From IMG/VR virus record IMGVR_UViG_3300028738_000008: 64,000 nucleotides of DNA. One strand, 5' to 3'. Below are positions 5,304-27,600 of this stretch, one piece after another. The notes under the pieces are model-generated. The model saw nothing but the letters and a program-made list of their open reading frames with translations, had not been told where the DNA came from and ran no database searches. The DNA is from a virus. Its lineage: Duplodnaviria; Caudoviricetes. Position numbers and translations under genes: made by a program. Position 1 is the stretch's first letter. The number at the start of each line of letters is the position of its first letter.

Positions 5304-5334
5304 TTTGCAAGTTACAAATTAATGATTACCTTTG
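5304..5334 (+). promoter_or_regulatory. Bacteroidota housekeeping-sigma promoter of tRNA operon 1
   Basis: TTTG-N19-TACCTTTG. Confidence 0.85.
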
Positions 5335-5363
5335 TACCGAAATAAAATTTTAAGAAATATACA

Positions 5364-5435
5364 ATGAGAACAATTTTTAACATAGTACCGCAGCATCAAC
5401 CACAACCCTTGAAGTATCTTCAATCGAATGGCTGA
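5364..5435 (+). CDS. Leader peptide 1 MRTIFNIVPQHQPQPLKYLQSNG (Pro/Gln/His sensor)
   Basis: CCG CAG CAT CAA CCA CAA CCC run, located between promoter and terminator of the Pro/His/Gln tRNA cluster. Confidence 0.85.
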   Translation: MRTIFNIVPQHQPQPLKYLQSNG

Positions 5436-5463
5436 ACTATGTAAAAAATAAACATACATAATG

Positions 5464-5500
5464 ATCCCCTTTAATTGAAAGATTAAAGGGGATTTTTTTT
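5464..5500 (+). terminator. Attenuator terminator 1
   Basis: ATCCCCTTTAAT-tgaaag-ATTAAAGGGGAT plus T run, 2 nt before the first tRNA. Confidence 0.9.
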
Positions 5501-8877: not shown

Positions 8878-8908
8878 TTTGCAGGTATCAAAAATTGTAT
8901 TACCTTTG
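8878..8908 (+). promoter_or_regulatory. Bacteroidota housekeeping-sigma promoter of tRNA operon 2
   Basis: TTTG-N19-TACCTTTG. Confidence 0.85.
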
Positions 8909-8938
8909 TACCGAAATTAATATTTAAGAATAGAAACA

Positions 8939-9031
8939 ATGAGAAATTTACTTAACATAGAATTATTGGCAGTGGATCAGGTCAACCTCCTATTATGGGC
9001 GGATGAAGATAGATTATGCCATGCTGGTTAA
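8939..9031 (+). CDS. Leader peptide 2 MRNLLNIELLAVDQVNLLLWADEDRLCHAG (Leu/Trp/Ala/Asp/Glu/Val sensor)
   Basis: Consecutive L L L W A D E D codons; lies between promoter and terminator. Confidence 0.85.
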   Translation: MRNLLNIELLAVDQVNLLLWADEDRLCHAG

Positions 9032-9056
9032 GTAGAGTTTAAGAATATTTTAAACT

Positions 9057-9087
9057 AAACCCCCAGCATACGTGTTGGGGGTTTTTT
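9057..9087 (+). terminator. Attenuator terminator 2
   Basis: AAACCCCCAGCA-tacg-TGTTGGGGGTTT plus T run. Confidence 0.9.
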
Positions 9088-9131
9088 GTTTATGTACGTT
9101 ATTTGACATGTTGGGTTATAAAATTAAAATT

Positions 9132-9203
9132 GGTCTATTGGGGTATGGGTTATCCTTTGTGGTTGTCAGCCATGAGAAGCGAGTTCAAGTCTCGCATAGA
9201 CCG
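9132..9203 (+). tRNA. tRNA-Asp(GTC)
   Basis: Loop TTGTCAG; GGTCTAT/ATAGACC; G73. Confidence 0.85.
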
Positions 9204-9262
9204 CACTAAGCATTATGAGAGTACTTGCCACTAGGGTAAGCCAACCTAAATTGCTTTTTCAT

Positions 9263-9336
9263 ACCTTCGTAGGGGAGTGGTCGTCCCTGTCGCACTGTCT
9301 ATGCGAAGATCGCCAGTTCAAATCTGGTCGGGGGTG
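9263..9336 (+). tRNA. tRNA-Asp(GTC)
   Basis: TCGCA-CTGTCTA-TGCGA; G73. Confidence 0.85.
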
Positions 9337-9365
9337 CTGGTTTCATAATAAATGAAACATTTAAT

Positions 9366-9438
9366 GCTCGGTTCATCTAACTGGTTAGGATAGGTGACCT
9401 TCAATCATCCAATACGGATTCAAGTTCCGTACCGAGTA
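9366..9438 (+). tRNA. tRNA-Glu(TTC)
   Basis: GGTGA-CCTTCAA-TCATC; GCTCGGT/ACCGAGT. Confidence 0.85.
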
Positions 9439-9448
9439 CTTTTTTCAT

Positions 9449-9523
9449 GCTCCTATCGTCTAGTTGGTTCAAGGCGTCTGTTTTACAAGCAGAATATCGG
9501 TGGTTCGAATCCATCTGGGAGCA
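9449..9523 (+). tRNA. tRNA-Val(TAC)
   Basis: TCTGT-TTTACAA-GCAGA. Confidence 0.9.
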
Positions 9524-9532
9524 CAAATTTAT

Positions 9533-9605
9533 GGCTTAGTAGACCAACGGCAGAGTCATCAGACTTAAACCCTGTACAGTGTGGGTTCGAATCCCACCTA
9601 AGCTA
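9533..9605 (+). tRNA. tRNA-Leu(TAA), short variable region
   Basis: Loop CTTAAAC; GGCTTAG/CTAAGCT; A73; imperfect anticodon stem. Confidence 0.75.
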
Positions 9606-9612
9606 CAAATAT

Positions 9613-9686
9613 GGCTCAGTATCCCAATTGGCAGAGGAAGTTGACTCAAAAACAACTAGTTGTCGGTTCGAATCCGACTTGAGCTA
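9613..9686 (+). tRNA. tRNA-Leu(CAA), short variable region
   Basis: GTTGA-CTCAAAA-ACAAC. Confidence 0.8.
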
Positions 9687-9697
9687 CAATATAATAT

Positions 9698-9770
9698 GGA
9701 TCGGTAGACCAACGGCAGAGTCACTTGTTTTAGAAGCAAGCCAGTGAGGGTTCGAATCCCTCTCGATCTA
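9698..9770 (+). tRNA. tRNA-Leu(TAG), short variable region
   Basis: CTTGT-TTTAGAA-GCAAG. Confidence 0.85.
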
Positions 9771-9780
9771 CAATATTTAT

Positions 9781-9867
9781 GGGGAATTGATGGAATGGTA
9801 GACATCCTAGTTTTAGAAACTAGTGCGAAATAATAGTAGCGTGTGAGTTCGAGTCTCACATTCCTCA
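9781..9867 (+). tRNA. tRNA-Leu(TAG), long variable arm
   Basis: CTAGT-TTTAGAA-ACTAG; GGGGAAT/ATTCCTC. Confidence 0.9.
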
Positions 9868-9986
9868 CGCAATATTCAATGGGAACGCATGTGTTAACAT
9901 CGTGGCGTCCGTCACGTAGATGGGAAACAGAACAGGGAGCATGCCTAGAATCTCGTTTAGGGTTGGAGATTTACTTTAATAATTAT

Positions 9987-10060
9987 GGGGCAGTAGCTCA
10001 ATTGGCTAGAGCACTACACTTGCAATGTAGAGGTTGTGGAATCGTCCTCCATCTGCTCCA
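9987..10060 (+). tRNA. tRNA-Ala(TGC)
   Basis: CTACA-CTTGCAA-TGTAG; G3:U70 pair. Confidence 0.9.
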
Positions 10061-10088
10061 CTGATAATCAGGAGATTATCTATTTTAC

Positions 10089-10178
10089 ACGTCTATGTCC
10101 GAGTGGCTTAAGGAACTGGTCTCCAAAACCAGCGTGGGTGACACCATATCCAAGGTTCGAATCCTTGTTGGCGTGCCA
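10089..10178 (+). tRNA. tRNA with Trp anticodon (CCA) on a Ser-like long-variable-arm body
   Basis: CTGGT-CTCCAAA-ACCAG; D region TGTCCGAGTGGCTTAAGGAA; 18-nt extra arm; G73; encoded CCA. Confidence 0.75.
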
Positions 10179-10199
10179 GAGAATAAATGTTGCGAATCT

Positions 10200-10225
10200 T
10201 GTAACATTTATTCTTTTTTTTCGTA
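10200..10225 (+). promoter_or_regulatory. ECF-type promoter
   Basis: TGTAAC-N16-CGTA(TAAT), same motif as in the 55-64 kb region. Confidence 0.7.
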
Positions 10226-10245
10226 TAATTTGTAAAAATAACAAT

Positions 10246-14963: not shown

Positions 14964-15041
14964 ATGATGAATGCAACACTTAAATACGGAAAGACTACTA
15001 AATCTTATAAAAAATATAAGATGAAGAAGGACTGTGTGTAA
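14964..15041 (+). CDS. Leader peptide 3 MMNATLKYGKTTKSYKKYKMKKDCV (Lys/Tyr sensor)
   Basis: 8 Lys and 3 Tyr in 25 codons; lies between promoter and terminator. Confidence 0.85.
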   Translation: MMNATLKYGKTTKSYKKYKMKKDCV

Positions 15042-15063
15042 GTGAACTATATATAATATATTC

Positions 15064-15098
15064 AAAAACCCAGTCTTAATTTAAGTCTGGGTTTTTTT
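15064..15098 (+). terminator. Attenuator terminator 3
   Basis: AAAAACCCAGTCTTAA-t-TTAAGTCTGGGTTTTT plus T run. Confidence 0.85.
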
Positions 15099-15993: not shown

Positions 15994-16049
15994 GTTACAA
16001 TCAGCTTGGAAATAAGAATGGCGATTGAAGAAATTTAGTCGCCATTTTT

Positions 16050-16075
16050 TGTAACCTTTTTGGTTTCTTAACGTA
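16050..16075 (+). promoter_or_regulatory. ECF-type promoter upstream of the suppressor tRNA
   Basis: TGTAAC-N16-CGTA, 15 nt before the tRNA 5' end. Confidence 0.7.
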
Positions 16076-16089
16076 TAAGTATTAAAATT

Positions 16090-16161
16090 GGCTCGTTAGT
16101 TCAGCGGTTAGGGCGTCTGACTCTAAATCAGAAGGCATGGTTTCGAATACCATACGAGCCG
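16090..16161 (+). tRNA. Amber suppressor tRNA (anticodon CTA)
   Basis: TCTGA-CTCTAAA-TCAGA perfect arm; GGCTCGT/ACGAGCC; G73. Confidence 0.9.
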
Positions 16162-16175
16162 CAAATAATTATAAT

Positions 16176-17636: not shown

Positions 17637-20186
17637 ATGACACAAGAAAATGATTTAAGTCCTATTTCGCCAGACCTCATAAAGAAGGCGTCACTAGAAT
17701 ATTTCGGCGGAGATTCATTAGCAGCCGAAGTTTGGATGAACAAGTATTGTTTGAAAGACGACAATAGCTTTTACGAACTAACTCCAGACGATATGCATCG
17801 GAGAATCTCAGGAGAGATCGCAAGAATTGAAAACAACTATCCAAATCCAGTATCCGAGGAAGAAATCTTCCAATCCCTATCACATTTTAAAAGAATTGTT
17901 CCGCAAGGAGGCCCAATGAGTGGCATTGGCAATAACCTTCAAATCGTATCATTAAGTAATTGCTTTGTGATTGGCGATAAAGGTGTTTCAGATTCATATG
18001 GTGGTATCTTGAAAATTGATCAGGAGCAAATTCAATTAATGAAACGACGTGGTGGAGTTGGTCACGATCTATCACACATTAGACCATCAGGATCACCAGT
18101 AAAAAACAGCGCATTAACCTCAACAGGTATTGTGCCATTCATGAAACGTTATAGCAACTCAACAAAAGAGGTTGCACAAGATGGTAGACGTGGTGCTTTA
18201 ATGCTTTCAATAGCCGTAAAACATCCAGACTCGGAAGCTTTCATCGACGCAAAATTGGAGAAAGGCGAAATATCTGGCGCAAACATTTCTGTTAAACTTG
18301 ACGACGAGTTTATGAACAGCCGTTATCTTCCCAACGGAGAATTCGTTCAACAATATCCTATTAACAGTGAAAACCCATCAGTAACCAAAACTATTAACTC
18401 TAATAAGTTATGGGATAAGATTATACACAATGCTTGGAAATCAGCAGAACCTGGAATTTTGTTTTGGGATACAATCATAAAAGAATCTATTCCAGACTGT
18501 TATAAAGATTTTGGGTTTAAAACTGTATCAACAAATCCTTGCGGTGAAATTCCTTTATGTCCATATGATAGTTGTAGATTGCTTGCTTTAAATCTATTTG
18601 GCTATGTCATTAATCCTTTCATGCCAAACGCATCTTTCGATTGGGAGTTATTCAAGTCTGACGTTCGTTTGGGTATGAGATACATGGACGATATCATTGA
18701 TCTTGAAATCGAAAAGATCGACGCAATATTATTGAAGATCGAAAATGACCCAGAGGATGCATTTATCAAAATGTATGAAAAGAATCTTTGGGAGCAGATA
18801 AAAGCAATGACGATCAAAGGTAGACGTACAGGCTTAGGCATCACAGCCGAAGGCGATATGCTTGCTTCCTTGGGCTTACGTTATGGAACTGATCTTGCTA
18901 CTGACTTTGCCGAAGAAGTTCAAAAAACGCTTAAATTAGAGGCTTACAGAGCATCTGTTGAAATGGCTAAAGAACGTGGTGCATTTCCTATTTATGATGC
19001 TAAGCTTGAAGAAAATAATCCCTTCATTGCTAGAATTAAAGAAGAAGACCCACAGTTGTATGCTGATATGCAAAAATATGGTCGTAGAAATATTGCCTTA
19101 TTAACAATTGCGCCAACAGGAACTGTAAGTTTAATGACGCAGACAACATCTGGTATTGAGCCTTGTTTTATGCCTGTGTACATGCGTCGCAGAAAAATCA
19201 ATCCACAGGAAAAAAATGTTCGTGTAGACTTCACTGATTCGGAAGGCATTTGCTGGACAGAATACCCAATCTTTCATCATAAATTTGAATTGTGGCTACA
19301 ATTAAATGGTTATGATGTTGACGCCGTTAAGTTGATGAAACCATCAGAGGTTGAGGAAATTACAAAATTAAGTCCTTATTATCTTGCTACTGCCAATGAT
19401 GTTGATTGGGTGAAAAAGGTTGAAATGCAAGGCAGACTGCAAAAGCATGTCGATCATAGTATTTCCGTAACGGTTAATCTTAAAGCCGACGCAACGGAAG
19501 ACCTTGTTTCAAAGGTATATGAGACTGGATGGAAATCAGGATGTAAAGGTATTACTGTTTACAGAGACGGCTGTCGTGACGGCGTTCTTGTATCAGTAAC
19601 AGACATAAAGGAAAATGAGAAGATCAAAGCATTCCATGACACGCAAGCACCTAAACGTCCTAAACGTGTAAAAGCTGATATTATTAGATTCAATAATAAT
19701 AGCGAAAAATGGATTGGCGTTGTAGGCTTAATCGATGGCAGACCCTATGAAATCTTCACAGGTAAGTTAGAGAACGGCTTAGCAACTATACCACCTTATG
19801 TTAAAGAAGGTATAATCATAAAAAATAAAATGGCTGATGGTACATCACGATACGATATTGAATACACTGATAATGCTGGTGTTGCTCATGTTGTTGAAGG
19901 CTTATCATATAAATTCAATCCAGAATTTTGGAACTACGCCAAACTTGTTTCAGGTATTTTGCGTCATGGTATGCCACTTGTCTATGTTAAGGAATTGGTT
20001 GAGTCGCTGAATCTTAATGACGAAAATTTGAATACATGGAAAAATGGCGTTGTTCGATGTATCAAAAGATATATTAAGGACGGCGTGAAAGGCAAAGGTA
20101 CATGTCCTAATTGCGGTGGAGATCGCCTTGAATATATTGAAGGATGCCTTACTTGCAAGGATTGCGGAAATAGTAAATGTTCGTAA
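17637..20186 (+). CDS. nrdJ: Class II (adenosylcobalamin-dependent) ribonucleotide reductase
   Basis: TNPCGEIPLC, RRTGLG, TIAPTGT, DHSISVTVN and KGITVYRDG motifs; C-terminal CxxC...CxxC. Confidence 0.95.
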   Translation: MTQENDLSPISPDLIKKASLEYFGGDSLAAEVWMNKYCLKDDNSFYELTPDDMHRRISGEIARIENNYPNPVSEEEIFQSLSHFKRIVPQGGPMSGIGNNLQIVSLSNCFVIGDKGVSDSYGGILKIDQEQIQLMKRRGGVGHDLSHIRPSGSPVKNSALTSTGIVPFMKRYSNSTKEVAQDGRRGALMLSIAVKHPDSEAFIDAKLEKGEISGANISVKLDDEFMNSRYLPNGEFVQQYPINSENPSVTKTINSNKLWDKIIHNAWKSAEPGILFWDTIIKESIPDCYKDFGFKTVSTNPCGEIPLCPYDSCRLLALNLFGYVINPFMPNASFDWELFKSDVRLGMRYMDDIIDLEIEKIDAILLKIENDPEDAFIKMYEKNLWEQIKAMTIKGRRTGLGITAEGDMLASLGLRYGTDLATDFAEEVQKTLKLEAYRASVEMAKERGAFPIYDAKLEENNPFIARIKEEDPQLYADMQKYGRRNIALLTIAPTGTVSLMTQTTSGIEPCFMPVYMRRRKINPQEKNVRVDFTDSEGICWTEYPIFHHKFELWLQLNGYDVDAVKLMKPSEVEEITKLSPYYLATANDVDWVKKVEMQGRLQKHVDHSISVTVNLKADATEDLVSKVYETGWKSGCKGITVYRDGCRDGVLVSVTDIKENEKIKAFHDTQAPKRPKRVKADIIRFNNNSEKWIGVVGLIDGRPYEIFTGKLENGLATIPPYVKEGIIIKNKMADGTSRYDIEYTDNAGVAHVVEGLSYKFNPEFWNYAKLVSGILRHGMPLVYVKELVESLNLNDENLNTWKNGVVRCIKRYIKDGVKGKGTCPNCGGDRLEYIEGCLTCKDCGNSKCS

Positions 20187-24375: not shown

Positions 24376-24522
24376 ATGAAAAGGAACATATCATCAGCAA
24401 CCATATCGGGAATTACATCGGGATCAATATCTCGCAATAGTAATGGTATGTCAAGATGTAATTTCATTTTTACAGGTATTAATACAGGCATACAAAAAAT
24501 AGATTGGGTTCTCTTAATGTGA
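24376..24522 (+). CDS. Leader peptide 4 MKRNISSATISGITSGSISRNSNGMSRCNFIFTGINTGIQKIDWVLLM (Ser/Gly/Thr/Ile/Asn/Arg/Met/Cys/Phe sensor)
   Basis: 36 of the 38 residues at positions 2-39 belong to the nine amino acids of the downstream tRNAs; may also start at 24328. Confidence 0.85.
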   Translation: MKRNISSATISGITSGSISRNSNGMSRCNFIFTGINTGIQKIDWVLLM

Positions 24523-24544
24523 GAATTTTAAAACCTTAAACAGG

Positions 24545-24578
24545 AAACCCGATCTACAGCAAATAGATCGGGTTTTTT
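24545..24578 (+). terminator. Attenuator terminator 4
   Basis: AAACCCGATCTA-cagcaaa-TAGATCGGGTTT plus T run. Confidence 0.9.
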
Positions 24579-24629
24579 CGTTGATAGCAGTAAGGCTATC
24601 GTTTCTTTGACATGTTGGAATTAAAATAA

Positions 24630-24810: not shown

Positions 24811-24840
24811 CAACAAAGAAAAAATAAAGTTGCTTAATTT

Positions 24841-24866
24841 TGTAACCTTTTCAAAGTTTCTTCGTA
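24841..24866 (+). promoter_or_regulatory. Internal ECF-type promoter
   Basis: TGTAAC-N16-CGTA. Confidence 0.7.
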
Positions 24867-24942
24867 TAATAGAAAAAGATTTATGAGTACAAAAATTAAA
24901 TGATGATTTTTCGAACCATTGTAGTATTTATATTAAAATAGT

Positions 24943-25614
24943 ATGATGAAAGATCAAATTATCGAATTACGAAAATTGGGAAATTCGTACAACGAAATAG
25001 TAAGTAAACTTGGTTGTACAAAGTCAAATGTCTCATATCATTGTGGCAAATTAGGAATTAATTTACATAATGATAATCCGAAAAAAATAAGTGAACAAAT
25101 CGTAGAGTCAATAAGAAACGATAAAATTTCGTTGTCGTCTAAAGAGATTGCTTTAAAATATAATGTTAGCGTAAGTACAGTGAATAAATTTACAAAGATG
25201 AAGTCAAGGTCTTTAGATATAAAACCTGAAAGTAGCGTATGTTTAAATTGTGGTAAAGAAACACCGTATAGAAAAGAGAAACGATTTTGTAGCAATCAAT
25301 GCGGTGCTCAATATATACACAAATTGGCTTATAAAGATTTTTTAGAAAATAACGAAAAATATTGTGTTGGAAATTACACAGCTAAAAATTTTAAGGACTT
25401 TATTGTAGCTGAGCAAAATGATAAATGCTTGATATGTGGAATGTCAGCAATTTGGGAAAACAAAATATTAGTTTTCGTTTTAGATCACATTGACGGTAAT
25501 GCTTCAAATAACAAAAGAGAAAATTTAAGATTAATTTGTCCTAATTGCGATTCGCAAACAAGCACATTTAAATCGAAAACGAAGGTTTCAATGAGAAGAA
25601 ATTATAATAAATAA
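24943..25614 (+). mobile_element. HNH homing endonuclease with N-terminal HTH, inserted in the tRNA operon
   Basis: LDHIDGNASNNKRENLRLICPNCDSQT; CLNC...FCSNQC zinc finger. Confidence 0.9.
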
Positions 25615-27526: not shown

Positions 27527-27600
27527 GGTCGTGTGGCGCAATTGGTTAGCGCAATTGTCTTATACACAAAAGGTTGTGGGTTCAAGTCCCACCATGACCA
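27527..27600 (+). tRNA. tRNA-Ile(TAT)
   Basis: TTGT-CTTATAC-ACAA; GGTCGTG/CATGACC. Confidence 0.8.

What the first reader, a model, noticed from the sequence alone, without database searches (positions are those of the whole stretch)
8939..10178. Attenuator 2: LLLWADED leader ahead of Asp/Glu/Val/Leu/Ala/Trp tRNAs
Seen: eight consecutive codons CTC CTA TTA TGG GCG GAT GAA GAT all belong to the downstream set. ATGCTGG (9021-27, the last codons) is complementary to CCAGCAT (9063-69) in the terminator's 5' arm. A ribosome reaching the stop would mask it and allow termination; one stalled at the sensor run would free it. The single Trp codon supports the odd tRNA(CCA) at 10089 being a working Trp decoder (inference).
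Basis: partly seen in the sequence, partly recalled or inferred. Interest (0 to 1): 0.8.

Follow-up and report, generated by a model that had tools for sequence, protein, structure and literature searches.

The report
Leader-peptide attenuator gating phage tRNA genes
A 30-codon mini-gene written mostly in Leu, Asp, Glu, Val, Ala and Trp codons, wired to a switchable transcription stop, sits in front of a giant peat-soil phage's tRNA genes for those six amino acids, so the phage probably makes these tRNAs only when ribosomes read those codons slowly; I found no published case of such control of tRNA genes.

Summary
The ORF 8939-9031, the eight-codon run 8984-9007, ATGCTGG 9021-27, CCAGCAT 9063-69 and the terminator 9057-9084 are all where it said.

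The unit is one of four in this window with the same layout: a Bacteroidota-type promoter, a short ORF, a terminator, then a tRNA array. Each leader is enriched only in the amino acids of its own tRNA cluster, and together the four clusters cover all 20 amino acids.

Six orthologues of this unit in related uncultured giant phages keep the reading frame. They also keep the pairing between the ORF end and the terminator's 5' arm, with both-sided changes at 5 of 9 pairs. In more distant relatives whose tRNA clusters are grouped differently, the leaders change to match.

Folding with a ribosome footprint shows the antiterminator is free while the ribosome sits on any codon up to the last sensor codon, and is masked at the final codons.

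Nothing here is experimental. This scan has found the same kind of unit before on other DNA and on this genome. Six literature searches found no published description.

The parts
8878..8908 (+). Bacteroidota-type promoter: TTTG (8878-8881), 19 nt, TAccTTTG (8901-8908). The transcription start is inferred near 8914.
   Evidence: The pattern TTTG-N18-21-TAnnTTTG is found at 5304, 8878 and 24241, each just upstream of a leader ORF. The 18-mer at 8900-8917 is identical at 5326-5343, and none of 100 shuffles gave as many matches. The same boxes precede the orthologous leaders. The promoter consensus itself is from my own knowledge of Bacteroides/Flavobacterium promoters.
8939..9031 (+). Leader ORF, 30 codons plus stop; there is no Shine-Dalgarno sequence, and the 5' UTR is A/U-rich.
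   Evidence: The frame is kept in 6 orthologues despite indels of 42, 3, 3 and 6 nt.
8960..9007 (+). Sensor segment, codons 8-23 (ELLAVDQVNLLLWADED; 15 of 17 residues in the tRNA set). It includes the run of 8 at 8984-9007.
   Evidence: The orthologous segments are 88-100% within the set.
9021..9027 (+). Antiterminator 5' strand AUGCUGG, inside codons 28-30.
9036..9056 (+). Inner hairpin of the antiterminator structure (9 bp, loop of 3).
   Evidence: It is kept in G001 with a G-U to U-A change.
9057..9087 (+). Intrinsic terminator: 12-bp stem 9057-9068/9073-9084, loop UACG, U-run 9082-9087. Positions 9063-9069 form the 3' strand of the antiterminator.
   Evidence: -19.0 kcal/mol, z = -4.2. There is a compensatory C-G to U-A change in G001.
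9098..9114 (+). boxA-like element GTTATTTGACATGTTGG, a likely loading site for host NusB/NusE antitermination factors.
   Evidence: The boxA consensus GYTCTTTAANA is from PMC5725501.
9132..10178 (+). Regulated tRNA array: Asp(GTC) 9132-9204 and 9263-9337; Glu(TTC) 9366-9438; Val(TAC) 9449-9524; Leu(TAA) 9533-9606; Leu(CAA) 9613-9687; Leu(TAG) 9698-9771 and 9781-9868; Ala(TGC) 9987-10061; Trp(CCA) 10089-10178.
10178..10223 (+). Terminator that closes the tRNA operon.
   Evidence: 18-pair stem followed by a T-run.

Best explanation
This is a ribosome-mediated (leader-peptide) transcription attenuator that gates a phage tRNA operon.

The proposed sequence of events is as follows. Host RNA polymerase starts at the Bacteroidota-type promoter, near 8914. 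A ribosome translates the 30-codon leader.

If aminoacyl-tRNAs for Leu, Asp, Glu, Val, Ala and Trp are plentiful, the ribosome reaches codons 26-30 or the stop codon and covers 9021-9027. The antiterminator then cannot form. The terminator 9057-9084 folds, and transcription ends at the U-run before any tRNA is made.

If decoding of any sensor codon is slow, the ribosome stalls with its footprint ending at or before about 9019. Then 9021-9027 pairs with 9063-9069, making a -15.9 kcal/mol hairpin that takes half of the terminator's 5' arm. The polymerase reads through.

Right after the terminator the polymerase transcribes a boxA-like element (9098-9108), which probably recruits the host Nus factors. 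It then makes the ten tRNAs. The new tRNAs speed up leader translation and shut the operon again, which is negative feedback.

Shown by computation only: all the sequence elements, the complementarity, its covariation, the frame conservation, the footprint geometry, and the co-variation of leader composition with tRNA set.

Inferred: promoter use, translation of the ORF, transcription-translation coupling, the regulatory outcome, and the boxA function.
For: (1) Anatomy and coordinates are as described.

(2) There are four paralogous units in the window, with leaders at 5364, 8939, 14964 and 24376. Each leader is enriched only for its own tRNA set: 4.9x, 2.0x, 3.6x and 1.7x on the diagonal of the leader-by-set matrix, and 0.93x or less everywhere off it. 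The binomial tails are 1e-4, 3e-4, 8e-5 and 2e-6. The four tRNA sets partition the 20 amino acids.

(3) Seven orthologues of this unit were found (window, G001/L001, L009, L010, L019, L060, L104). All indels inside the ORF are multiples of 3. The antiterminator pairs in 58 of 63 cells, with 5 of 9 pairs changed on both sides. In L060 and L104 the loop-proximal bases of the 5' arm pair with the ORF end but not with the 3' arm.

(4) Each orthologue folds into an antiterminator of -13 to -19.5 kcal/mol, with z from -3.6 to -5.5 and 0 of 200 shuffles as stable.

(5) With a ribosome footprint masked, all 7 orthologues show the terminator's 5' arm paired while the A site is anywhere up to the last D/E codon, and the pairing drops directly after that.

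(6) Relatives whose tRNAs are grouped differently have matching leaders. In G002 a run LLQQLQLLQL precedes Gln and Leu tRNAs, a K/R/M-rich leader precedes Met, Lys and Arg tRNAs, and a T/S/Y/H/A/G/R/C/P/V leader precedes exactly those tRNAs (diagonal 3.3x, 1.7x, 3.9x). The 735-kb phage LR756501.1 has a T/P/A/V/R/G leader before Arg, Thr, Val, Ala, Gly and Pro tRNAs.

(7) The boxA-like motif is identical to the sequence in Bacteroidota rRNA-operon spacers and matches the boxA consensus at 10 of 11 positions.
Against: There is no expression, ribosome-profiling or 3'-end data. Only DNA runs from peat hold this sequence, and no RNA run was listed.

At thermodynamic equilibrium the terminator wins for every ribosome position (P at least 0.93). 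The switch therefore has to be kinetic. As I recall it, this is also true of the E. coli trp attenuator, but I did not check that here.

In this unit no structure was found that would sequester the antiterminator strand in the absence of translation (an anti-antiterminator, the 1:2 helix of trp). An untranslated leader would therefore read through.

Two sensor codons, CTC and GTC, are not read by the encoded anticodons under standard wobble rules.

The G001 orthologue carries a 14-codon in-frame insertion made mostly of amino acids outside the tRNA set.

The N-terminal Asn and Ile codons lie in the zone where a stall would also cause read-through.

The sensor cannot tell a missing tRNA from a missing amino acid.

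The host is unknown.

If the 9103-9114 motif were a promoter, the tRNAs would also have a route of expression that bypasses the attenuator.
Confidence: 0.8

Rival explanations
1. The element is a translation-dependent attenuator, but it reports general translation capacity (ribosome availability, host shut-off, overall elongation rate) rather than the supply of these particular tRNAs. On this reading the codon bias is secondary.
For: Any stall in codons 2-24 frees the antiterminator, including stalls on codons outside the tRNA set (R, N, I, Q). With no ribosome at all the antiterminator also forms. The G001 insertion adds 14 mostly non-set codons without destroying the unit.
Against: It does not explain why four leaders in one genome carry four disjoint codon sets, each matching its own cluster. 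Nor does it explain why the leaders change together with tRNA grouping in G002, L039 and LR756501.1.
Confidence: 0.1
2. The terminator is an ordinary constitutive terminator that ends a short transcript (a small peptide gene or a small RNA). The tRNA array is then transcribed from its own start at the conserved 9103-9114 motif. The leader and the tRNAs would be neighbours, not a regulatory pair.
For: A sigma-70-like match, TTGACA-16-TAAAAT, lies at 9103-9130. The motif precedes tRNAs in many phages, sometimes inside arrays or after an inserted ORF. Terminated attenuator RNAs and leader peptides can act in trans in Sinorhizobium (abstracts of PMC7968998 and PMC7298713, listed).
Against: The -10-like hexamer ends 2 nt before the mature tRNA 5' end, and it is not kept at that spacing in the fourth unit or in the orthologues. 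In hosts the motif is an rRNA-spacer sequence resembling boxA, not a promoter. This reading explains neither the covarying pairing between the ORF end and the 5' arm, nor the codon/tRNA match.
Confidence: 0.06
3. The codon match and the complementarity are coincidences in an AT-rich intergenic region.
Against: The pattern is replicated in 4 units here and in at least 10 further units in relatives, with frame conservation and compensatory changes.
Confidence: 0.02

Closest known systems
Multivalent leader-peptide attenuators of enterobacterial amino-acid operons (ilvL of ilvGMEDA: Leu/Val/Ile; thrL: Thr/Ile; also trpL, hisL, leuL, pheL)
   Same: Both have a short translated leader between the promoter and the first gene, runs of sensor codons, an intrinsic terminator, and an antiterminator that shares the terminator's 5' arm and is masked by a ribosome at the end of the ORF. 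In both, several amino acids are sensed by one leader.
   Different: The regulated genes here are tRNA genes, not biosynthetic enzymes, so the product feeds back on decoding itself. Six amino acids are sensed at once. No anti-antiterminator (the 1:2 helix of trp) was found in this unit. The setting is a phage with a Bacteroidota-type promoter. There is no sequence relation: no Rfam leader family matched.
pheST (phenylalanyl-tRNA synthetase) leader-peptide attenuator of E. coli, and T-box riboswitches of Firmicutes
   Same: These control translation-apparatus genes in response to how well a codon or a tRNA is served.
   Different: pheST regulates a synthetase and has a single-amino-acid leader. 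T-boxes bind uncharged tRNA directly, without a ribosome, and regulate synthetase or amino-acid genes. No T-box match was found in the window. This comparison is from my own knowledge.
rRNA-operon antitermination (boxA with NusB/NusE, NusA, NusG, SuhB) and lambda nut sites
   Same: An 11-nt boxA-like sequence lies in the nascent RNA ahead of a long, structured, untranslated transcription unit. As in lambda, the phage would be using host Nus factors. PMC5725501 states that NusB/E bind boxA upstream of the 16S and 23S genes and gives the consensus GYTCTTTAANA.
   Different: Here the element follows a conditional terminator and precedes tRNAs. The window copy matches the consensus at 9 of 11 positions, and the host-type copy at 10 of 11. 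Binding was not tested. In hosts the 3' half of the motif also forms the 23S processing stem; that partner strand is absent in the phage.
Codon-matched leader attenuators ahead of tRNA arrays noted earlier by this scan in other phages (flavobacterial-type, Caulobacter and other giant phages) and for the first unit of this genome
   Same: The design is the same: a leader, a terminator, and a tRNA cluster with matching composition.
   Different: Those are unchecked AI notes on other DNA, not publications. This unit adds 7-way covariation for the antiterminator and the boxA-like element.

Membership tests
Leader-peptide (ribosome-mediated) transcription attenuators | A short ORF lies in the transcribed leader between the promoter and the first regulated gene. 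| tested here: met
   The ORF 8939-9031 starts 31 nt after the promoter's -7 box and ends 100 nt before the first tRNA. The frame is conserved across 7 orthologues. The transcription start and translation are inferred.
Leader-peptide (ribosome-mediated) transcription attenuators | Sensor codons are enriched for the amino acids relevant to the regulated genes. | tested here: met
   19 of 29 residues are in the set (2.0x, P = 3e-4), with a run of 8. The matrix over the four units is enriched on the diagonal and depleted off it. Leader composition co-varies with tRNA content in relatives.
Leader-peptide (ribosome-mediated) transcription attenuators | An intrinsic terminator lies between the leader ORF and the regulated genes. 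| tested here: met
   A 12-bp stem followed by U6, -19.0 kcal/mol, z = -4.2, with a compensatory change in G001.
Leader-peptide (ribosome-mediated) transcription attenuators | An alternative antiterminator helix exists that excludes the terminator. | tested here: met
   The 9021-27/9063-69 pairing lies within a -15.9 kcal/mol hairpin. In the alignment 58 of 63 cells pair and 5 of 9 pairs are compensatory. All orthologues fold likewise. At equilibrium the terminator still wins, so the switch must be kinetic.
Leader-peptide (ribosome-mediated) transcription attenuators | Ribosome position decides between the structures: a stall at sensor codons frees the antiterminator, and a ribosome at the ORF end masks it. 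| tested here: met
   Footprint-masked folding of the window unit and 6 orthologues. This is a model computation, not a measurement.
Leader-peptide (ribosome-mediated) transcription attenuators | A 1:2 (anti-antiterminator or pause) helix causes termination when the leader is not translated. | tested here: not met
   In this unit the ribosome-free nascent RNA still forms the antiterminator (P 0.6-0.8). The first and third units do show such a helix. This feature is not present in all known attenuators.
Leader-peptide (ribosome-mediated) transcription attenuators | Read-through responds to the supply of charged tRNA in vivo or in vitro. | not testable with these tools
   No RNA run was listed for this DNA, and no cultured close relative exists in the phage collection.
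Rfam leader families and T-box (His_leader, Leu_leader, Thr_leader, Trp_leader, T-box and others) | A match to the family's covariance model. | tested here: not met
   There is no such match at gathering score in the window, or at E up to 1 in 4500-35000.
rrn-type boxA antitermination element | A sequence matching the boxA consensus, found in the host upstream of both 16S and 23S. | tested here: met
   The host-type motif GTTCTTTGACA matches GYTCTTTAANA (PMC5725501) at 10 of 11 positions, and the window copy GTTATTTGACA at 9 of 11. In Bacteroidota genomes the 19-mer lies between the spacer tRNAs and the 23S rRNA, and GTTCTTTGAAAG lies upstream of the 16S rRNA.
rrn-type boxA antitermination element | It binds NusB/NusE and confers resistance to termination. 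| not testable with these tools
   This needs binding and read-through assays.

The most novel reading that the evidence does not exclude
The four leaders together form a complete meter of decoding capacity covering all 20 amino acids. The phage tests, one codon class at a time, whether the infected cell can still decode. It switches on only the tRNA operon that is needed, then hands the polymerase to the host's own rRNA antitermination machinery through a boxA copied from the host rRNA-operon spacer. This would be on-demand replacement of tRNAs lost to host tRNA decay or to tRNA-cleaving anti-phage defences. It would give a direct, testable answer to why large phages carry tRNA sets.
Probability: 0.45. 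Interest if true: 0.92.

Novelty: new variant of a known kind. Interest (0 to 1): 0.85.

Why it matters
Why phages carry tRNA genes is a long-standing question. The usual candidates are codon-usage matching, replacement of degraded host tRNAs, and escape from anticodon nucleases. How those genes are controlled is essentially unknown.

An attenuator whose sensor codons are the very codons served by the tRNAs behind it implies that the phage expresses its tRNAs in response to a measured decoding deficit, with built-in feedback. That turns the question into simple experiments: deplete one tRNA and watch one operon.

It also extends leader-peptide attenuation, which is known for amino-acid and synthetase genes, to tRNA genes. 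And it shows a phage pairing a conditional terminator with a host-type boxA.

The units are short, modular and predictable from sequence. They could therefore serve as annotation markers for tRNA operons in giant phages and as portable sensors of codon-specific translation speed.

Tried and rejected
Equilibrium switch. Folding the full leader with the ribosome footprint masked at every codon always gave the terminator (P at least 0.93). I therefore rejected a thermodynamic switch and kept a kinetic one.

Sigma-70 promoter at 9103-9130. Rejected, because the -10 hexamer ends 2 nt before the tRNA 5' end and its spacing is not conserved in the fourth unit or in the orthologues.

The motif as a Bacteroidota -33/-7 promoter. 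The spacing to the nearest upstream TTTG is 12-15 nt, not 19-21, so this is unlikely.

The motif as the 5' strand of a processing stem flanking the tRNA array, as it is for 23S in hosts. No complementary partner was found after either array; duplex energies equal those of shuffled controls.

Protein search with the 48-aa leader of the fourth unit: no homologue. Such ORFs are probably not called as genes.

RNA evidence. 24 peat DNA runs hold the sequence, and no RNA run was listed.

Only 10 loci had a tRNA behind the motif.

The 18-mer promoter scan and the gapped promoter scan found only one related contig.

A nucleotide search of cultured phages found only tRNA similarity.

Six literature searches found no paper on attenuation of tRNA genes.

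No structure prediction or complex prediction was run; neither was relevant.
Full report
OBSERVATION

The window is AT-rich (GC about 0.34) and phage-like. It carries 33-35 tRNA genes, all on the + strand.

At the given place the ORF 8939-9031 reads MRNLLNIELLAVDQVNLLLWADEDRLCHAG*. Codons 16-23 (8984-9007) are CTC CTA TTA TGG GCG GAT GAA GAT. ATGCTGG is at 9021-27, and CCAGCAT is at 9063-69 within the 5' arm of a 12-bp terminator (9057-9084, U-run to 9087).

Behind the terminator lie tRNAs Asp x2, Glu (Rfam only), Val, Leu x4, Ala and Trp(CCA), from 9132 to 10178. The array is closed by a second terminator at 10178-10216.

IS IT MORE THAN CHANCE?

As background I used the residue frequencies of 34 long ORFs of the window. 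The set {D,E,V,L,A,W} has frequency 0.327. The leader has 19 of 29 residues in the set (binomial tail 3e-4) and a run of 8 (P about 2e-3). Of 395 short ORFs in six frames, one reaches the run of 8 and one reaches the fraction 0.66, presumably this ORF itself. That alone would be suggestive only.

The decisive point is recurrence. The same layout occurs four times in the window:
- A leader at 5364-5435 with the run PQHQPQP stands before Pro x3, His x2 and Gln x2 tRNAs.
- The present unit.
- A leader at 14964-15041 with 11 Lys/Tyr residues in 24 stands before Lys x3 and Tyr x2.
- A leader at 24376-24522 has 31 consecutive residues from {I,S,T,G,R,N,M,C,F} and stands before Cys, Phe, Gly, Met, Ile, Asn, Thr, Arg and Ser tRNAs.

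In the 4x4 matrix of leaders against tRNA sets, the diagonal is enriched 4.9, 2.0, 3.6 and 1.7 times. Every off-diagonal cell is 0.93 or lower. The four sets partition the 20 amino acids.

Three units carry an exact TTTG-N19-TAnnTTTG promoter-like box, and the third unit carries CTTG in place of TTTG. Units 1 and 2 share an identical 18-mer there. That spacing and those boxes are the Bacteroidota housekeeping promoter type (my own knowledge). A BspA-type leucine-rich-repeat gene in the window fits such a host.

RELATIVES

The DNA comes from peat metagenomes. A close relative is IMG/VR contig 3300025140_000001, here called G001.

More distant relatives were reached through the ATP-grasp gene that lies between the His and Gln tRNAs. 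They include a 425-kb, 97%-complete contig (G002) and contigs of 328 and 363 kb. The nearest GenBank records are the 735-kb and 462-kb uncultured giant phages LR756501 and LR756500, at about 50% protein identity.

Seven orthologues of this unit were collected and aligned (A2). Four things stand out.

(a) All four indels inside the ORF are multiples of three (42, 3, 3 and 6 nt). The peptides stay 88-100% within the tRNA set over the sensor segment although their sequences differ, for example LVAVLMVDVLLWAAEEDD and LLVLAEVLLWDDEEA.

(b) The pairing between the ORF end and the terminator's 5' arm is kept in one common register. 58 of 63 cells are standard pairs and 5 of 9 pairs change on both sides: AUGCUGG/CCAGCAU in the window, AGUCGGGU/ACCCGACU in L009, CAGUCGGGU/ACCCGACUG in L010, and AUUGUCGGG/CCCGACAAU in L104. 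Sliding one strand by 1-3 columns gives 14-27 pairs of about 63 and 0-1 compensatory pairs.

(c) In L060 and L104 the loop-proximal bases of the 5' arm pair with the ORF end but not with the 3' arm. The antiterminator is therefore selected in its own right, not as a by-product of the terminator.

(d) The terminator itself shows a compensatory C-G to U-A change between the window and G001.

CO-VARIATION OF LEADER WITH tRNA CONTENT

In G002 the tRNAs are grouped differently, and the leaders follow:
- A leader with LLQQLQLLQL precedes Gln and Leu tRNAs.
- A K/R/M/I/T-rich leader precedes Met, Lys and Arg tRNAs.
- A leader built from T,S,Y,H,A,G,R,C,P,V precedes Tyr, Thr, Pro, Ala, Ser, Cys, His, Gly, Val and Arg tRNAs.
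The diagonal enrichments are 3.3, 1.7 and 3.9 times, and off-diagonal cells are 1.2 or lower.

Further cases:
- G003 has a YYY..KK.YKK leader before Lys and Tyr tRNAs.
- L039 has a leader containing N,H,I,C,F,S,W,R before Phe, His, Ser, Ile, Arg, Cys, Trp and Asn tRNAs.
- LR756501.1 has a T/P/A/V/R/G leader before Arg, Thr, Val, Ala, Gly and Pro tRNAs.

The leaders share an N-terminus, M-[KR]-N-L-x-[ND]-I, so they are paralogues whose sensor parts have diverged to match their clusters.

MECHANISM

The hairpin 9021-9069 consists of an outer helix (9021-27 with 9063-69) and an inner 9-bp hairpin (9036-9056). It folds at -15.9 kcal/mol (z = -4.5). The terminator folds at -19.0 kcal/mol (z = -4.2). 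All six orthologues give -13 to -19.5 kcal/mol, z from -3.6 to -5.5, with 0 of 200 shuffles as stable.

When the whole leader is folded at equilibrium, the terminator wins wherever the ribosome is placed, because the inner hairpin can coexist with it. The switch therefore has to be kinetic: the antiterminator forms before the 3' arm is made. As I recall it, the E. coli trp attenuator is similar (2:3 about -12, 3:4 about -20 kcal/mol), but I did not check this.

I then folded the nascent RNA up to the terminator loop with a 28-nt footprint masked (A site -15 to +12). The 5' arm is paired with probability 0.6-0.9 for every A-site codon from 2 to 24. It drops to 0.0-0.5 from codon 25/26 to the stop codon. 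The boundary falls directly after the last sensor codon: with the A site at GAT 9005-07, the footprint edge is near 9017, and the antiterminator starts at 9021. The same step is seen in all seven orthologues and, with their own sequences, in the other three units of the window.

Of the 19 sensor codons, 17 are readable by the encoded anticodons under ordinary or extended wobble. CTC and GTC are not.

A NEW ELEMENT: boxA-LIKE MOTIF

Between the terminator and the first tRNA lies TTGACATGTTGG (9103-9114). It is also found after the terminator of the fourth unit (24607) and before the first tRNA of the orthologues. It also stands before or inside tRNA arrays of other IMG/VR phages.

The sigma-70-like match there is not credible, because its -10 hexamer abuts the tRNA and is not conserved.

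The extended 19-mer occurs in 41 reference genomes, most of them Bacteroidota. There it lies in the rRNA operon between the spacer tRNAs and the 23S 5' end, and a shorter copy lies upstream of the 16S. Its first 11 nt, GTTCTTTGACA, match the boxA consensus GYTCTTTAANA at 10 of 11 positions. PMC5725501 states that NusB/E bind boxA upstream of the 16S and 23S genes.

In hosts the 3' half of the motif also pairs with the 23S 3' flank. The phage has no such partner.

My reading (about 60%) is that a polymerase which passes the attenuator is loaded with the host Nus factors, so that it can cross the long, structured, untranslated tRNA array.

WHAT SPEAKS AGAINST, AND WHAT IS OPEN

- There is no RNA or ribosome data.
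- There is no anti-antiterminator in this unit, so an untranslated leader would read through.
- G001 has a 42-nt in-frame insertion, flanked by AACATGG repeats, that encodes mostly amino acids outside the set.
- Stalls at the conserved N-terminal Asn and Ile(ATA) codons would also open the gate.
- Amino-acid starvation and tRNA loss are indistinguishable to such a sensor.
- The host and the timing of expression are unknown.

COMPARISON AND NOVELTY

Functionally this is a multivalent leader-peptide attenuator of the ilvL/thrL type. The defining features that can be tested in sequence are met, except the 1:2 helix. It belongs to no Rfam leader family and is not a T-box.

What is new is the target (tRNA genes), the feedback logic that follows from it, the modular partition of all 20 amino acids, and the coupling to a host-type boxA.

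Six full-text searches found no description. Subscription journals are largely outside that library.

This scan has noted the same kind of unit before, in other phages and for other units of this genome. I reached my reading before consulting those notes, and they are not independent evidence.

VERDICT

It is a new variant of a known kind. Confidence in the mechanism is 0.8, and interest is 0.85.

Noticed in passing
window 9098-9114 and 24602-24620; L159:4923-4941: A boxA-like element (host-type form GTTCTTTGACATGTTGGAAA) lies right after the attenuator terminators of units 2 and 4. It is identical to a sequence in Bacteroidota rRNA operons between the spacer tRNAs and the 23S rRNA. It also precedes tRNAs in several other IMG/VR phages.
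   Followed up: partly
window 5364-5494, 14964-15094, 24376-24575: Three sister units have the same promoter, leader and terminator layout. They stand before the Pro/His/Gln, the Lys/Tyr, and the Cys/Phe/Gly/Met/Ile/Asn/Thr/Arg/Ser tRNAs. In unit 1 a leader hairpin, TTGAAG/CTTCAA, changes to TTGAAA/TTTCAA in G001, which is a compensatory change.
   Followed up: partly
window 10089-10178; L009:17180-17261; L004:17542-17616: The tRNA(CCA) has an 18-nt variable arm with its own stem, discriminator G and an encoded CCA end. Its orthologues have a 12-nt and a normal-length variable region, so the arm is a lineage-specific expansion. ARAGORN calls the G001 copy Gly(TCC), and that copy has a degenerate anticodon stem.
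   Followed up: partly
window 16016-16162: An amber-suppressor tRNA (anticodon CTA) is not behind a leader. It follows a 79-aa gene and its terminator, and it has a separate sigma-70-like promoter (TTGTAAC...CGTATAAG). Similar promoters occur at 10198-10229 and near 24838-24870.
   Followed up: no
window 9869-9986; L001:1758-1845: A spacer of about 118 nt between tRNA-Leu and tRNA-Ala is partly conserved in G001. Neither ARAGORN nor Rfam calls it a tRNA. It may be a small structured RNA or a decayed tRNA.
   Followed up: no
L001:641-682 (G001 orthologue of this leader): A 42-nt in-frame insertion, flanked by AACATGG direct repeats, adds 14 codons, mostly for amino acids outside the cluster's set (H,Y,I,N,S,G,Q,K).
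   Followed up: partly
window 8939-8959 and 5364-5384; L009:8939 and 14576; L012:6638: Paralogous leaders share the N-terminus M-[KR]-N-L-x-[ND]-I with a conserved AAC/GAC-ATA. ATA is read by the phage's own tRNA-Ile(TAT) at 27527. A stall there would open every gate, so this could be a start-up signal.
   Followed up: no
window 9366-9438: The tRNA-Glu(TTC) is found by Rfam (48.7 bits) but missed by ARAGORN. By my manual reading, its anticodon loop reads CCTTCAA, that is, C rather than U at position 33.
   Followed up: no
window 24943-25614; G003 (L010) 19722-19877; L060 and L104 between the terminator and the boxA-like motif: HNH-endonuclease-like genes and a conserved 43-aa ORF (starting METIKYF... 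or MKTIEYI...) are inserted inside tRNA operons, including between the attenuator and the boxA-like motif.
   Followed up: no
L156:2992-3201 (LR756501.1, 735-kb uncultured phage): This published giant-phage genome carries a unit of the same design: a leader rich in T,P,A,V,R,G and a terminator, followed by Arg, Thr, Val, Ala, Gly and Pro tRNAs. The record has no annotation.
   Followed up: partly
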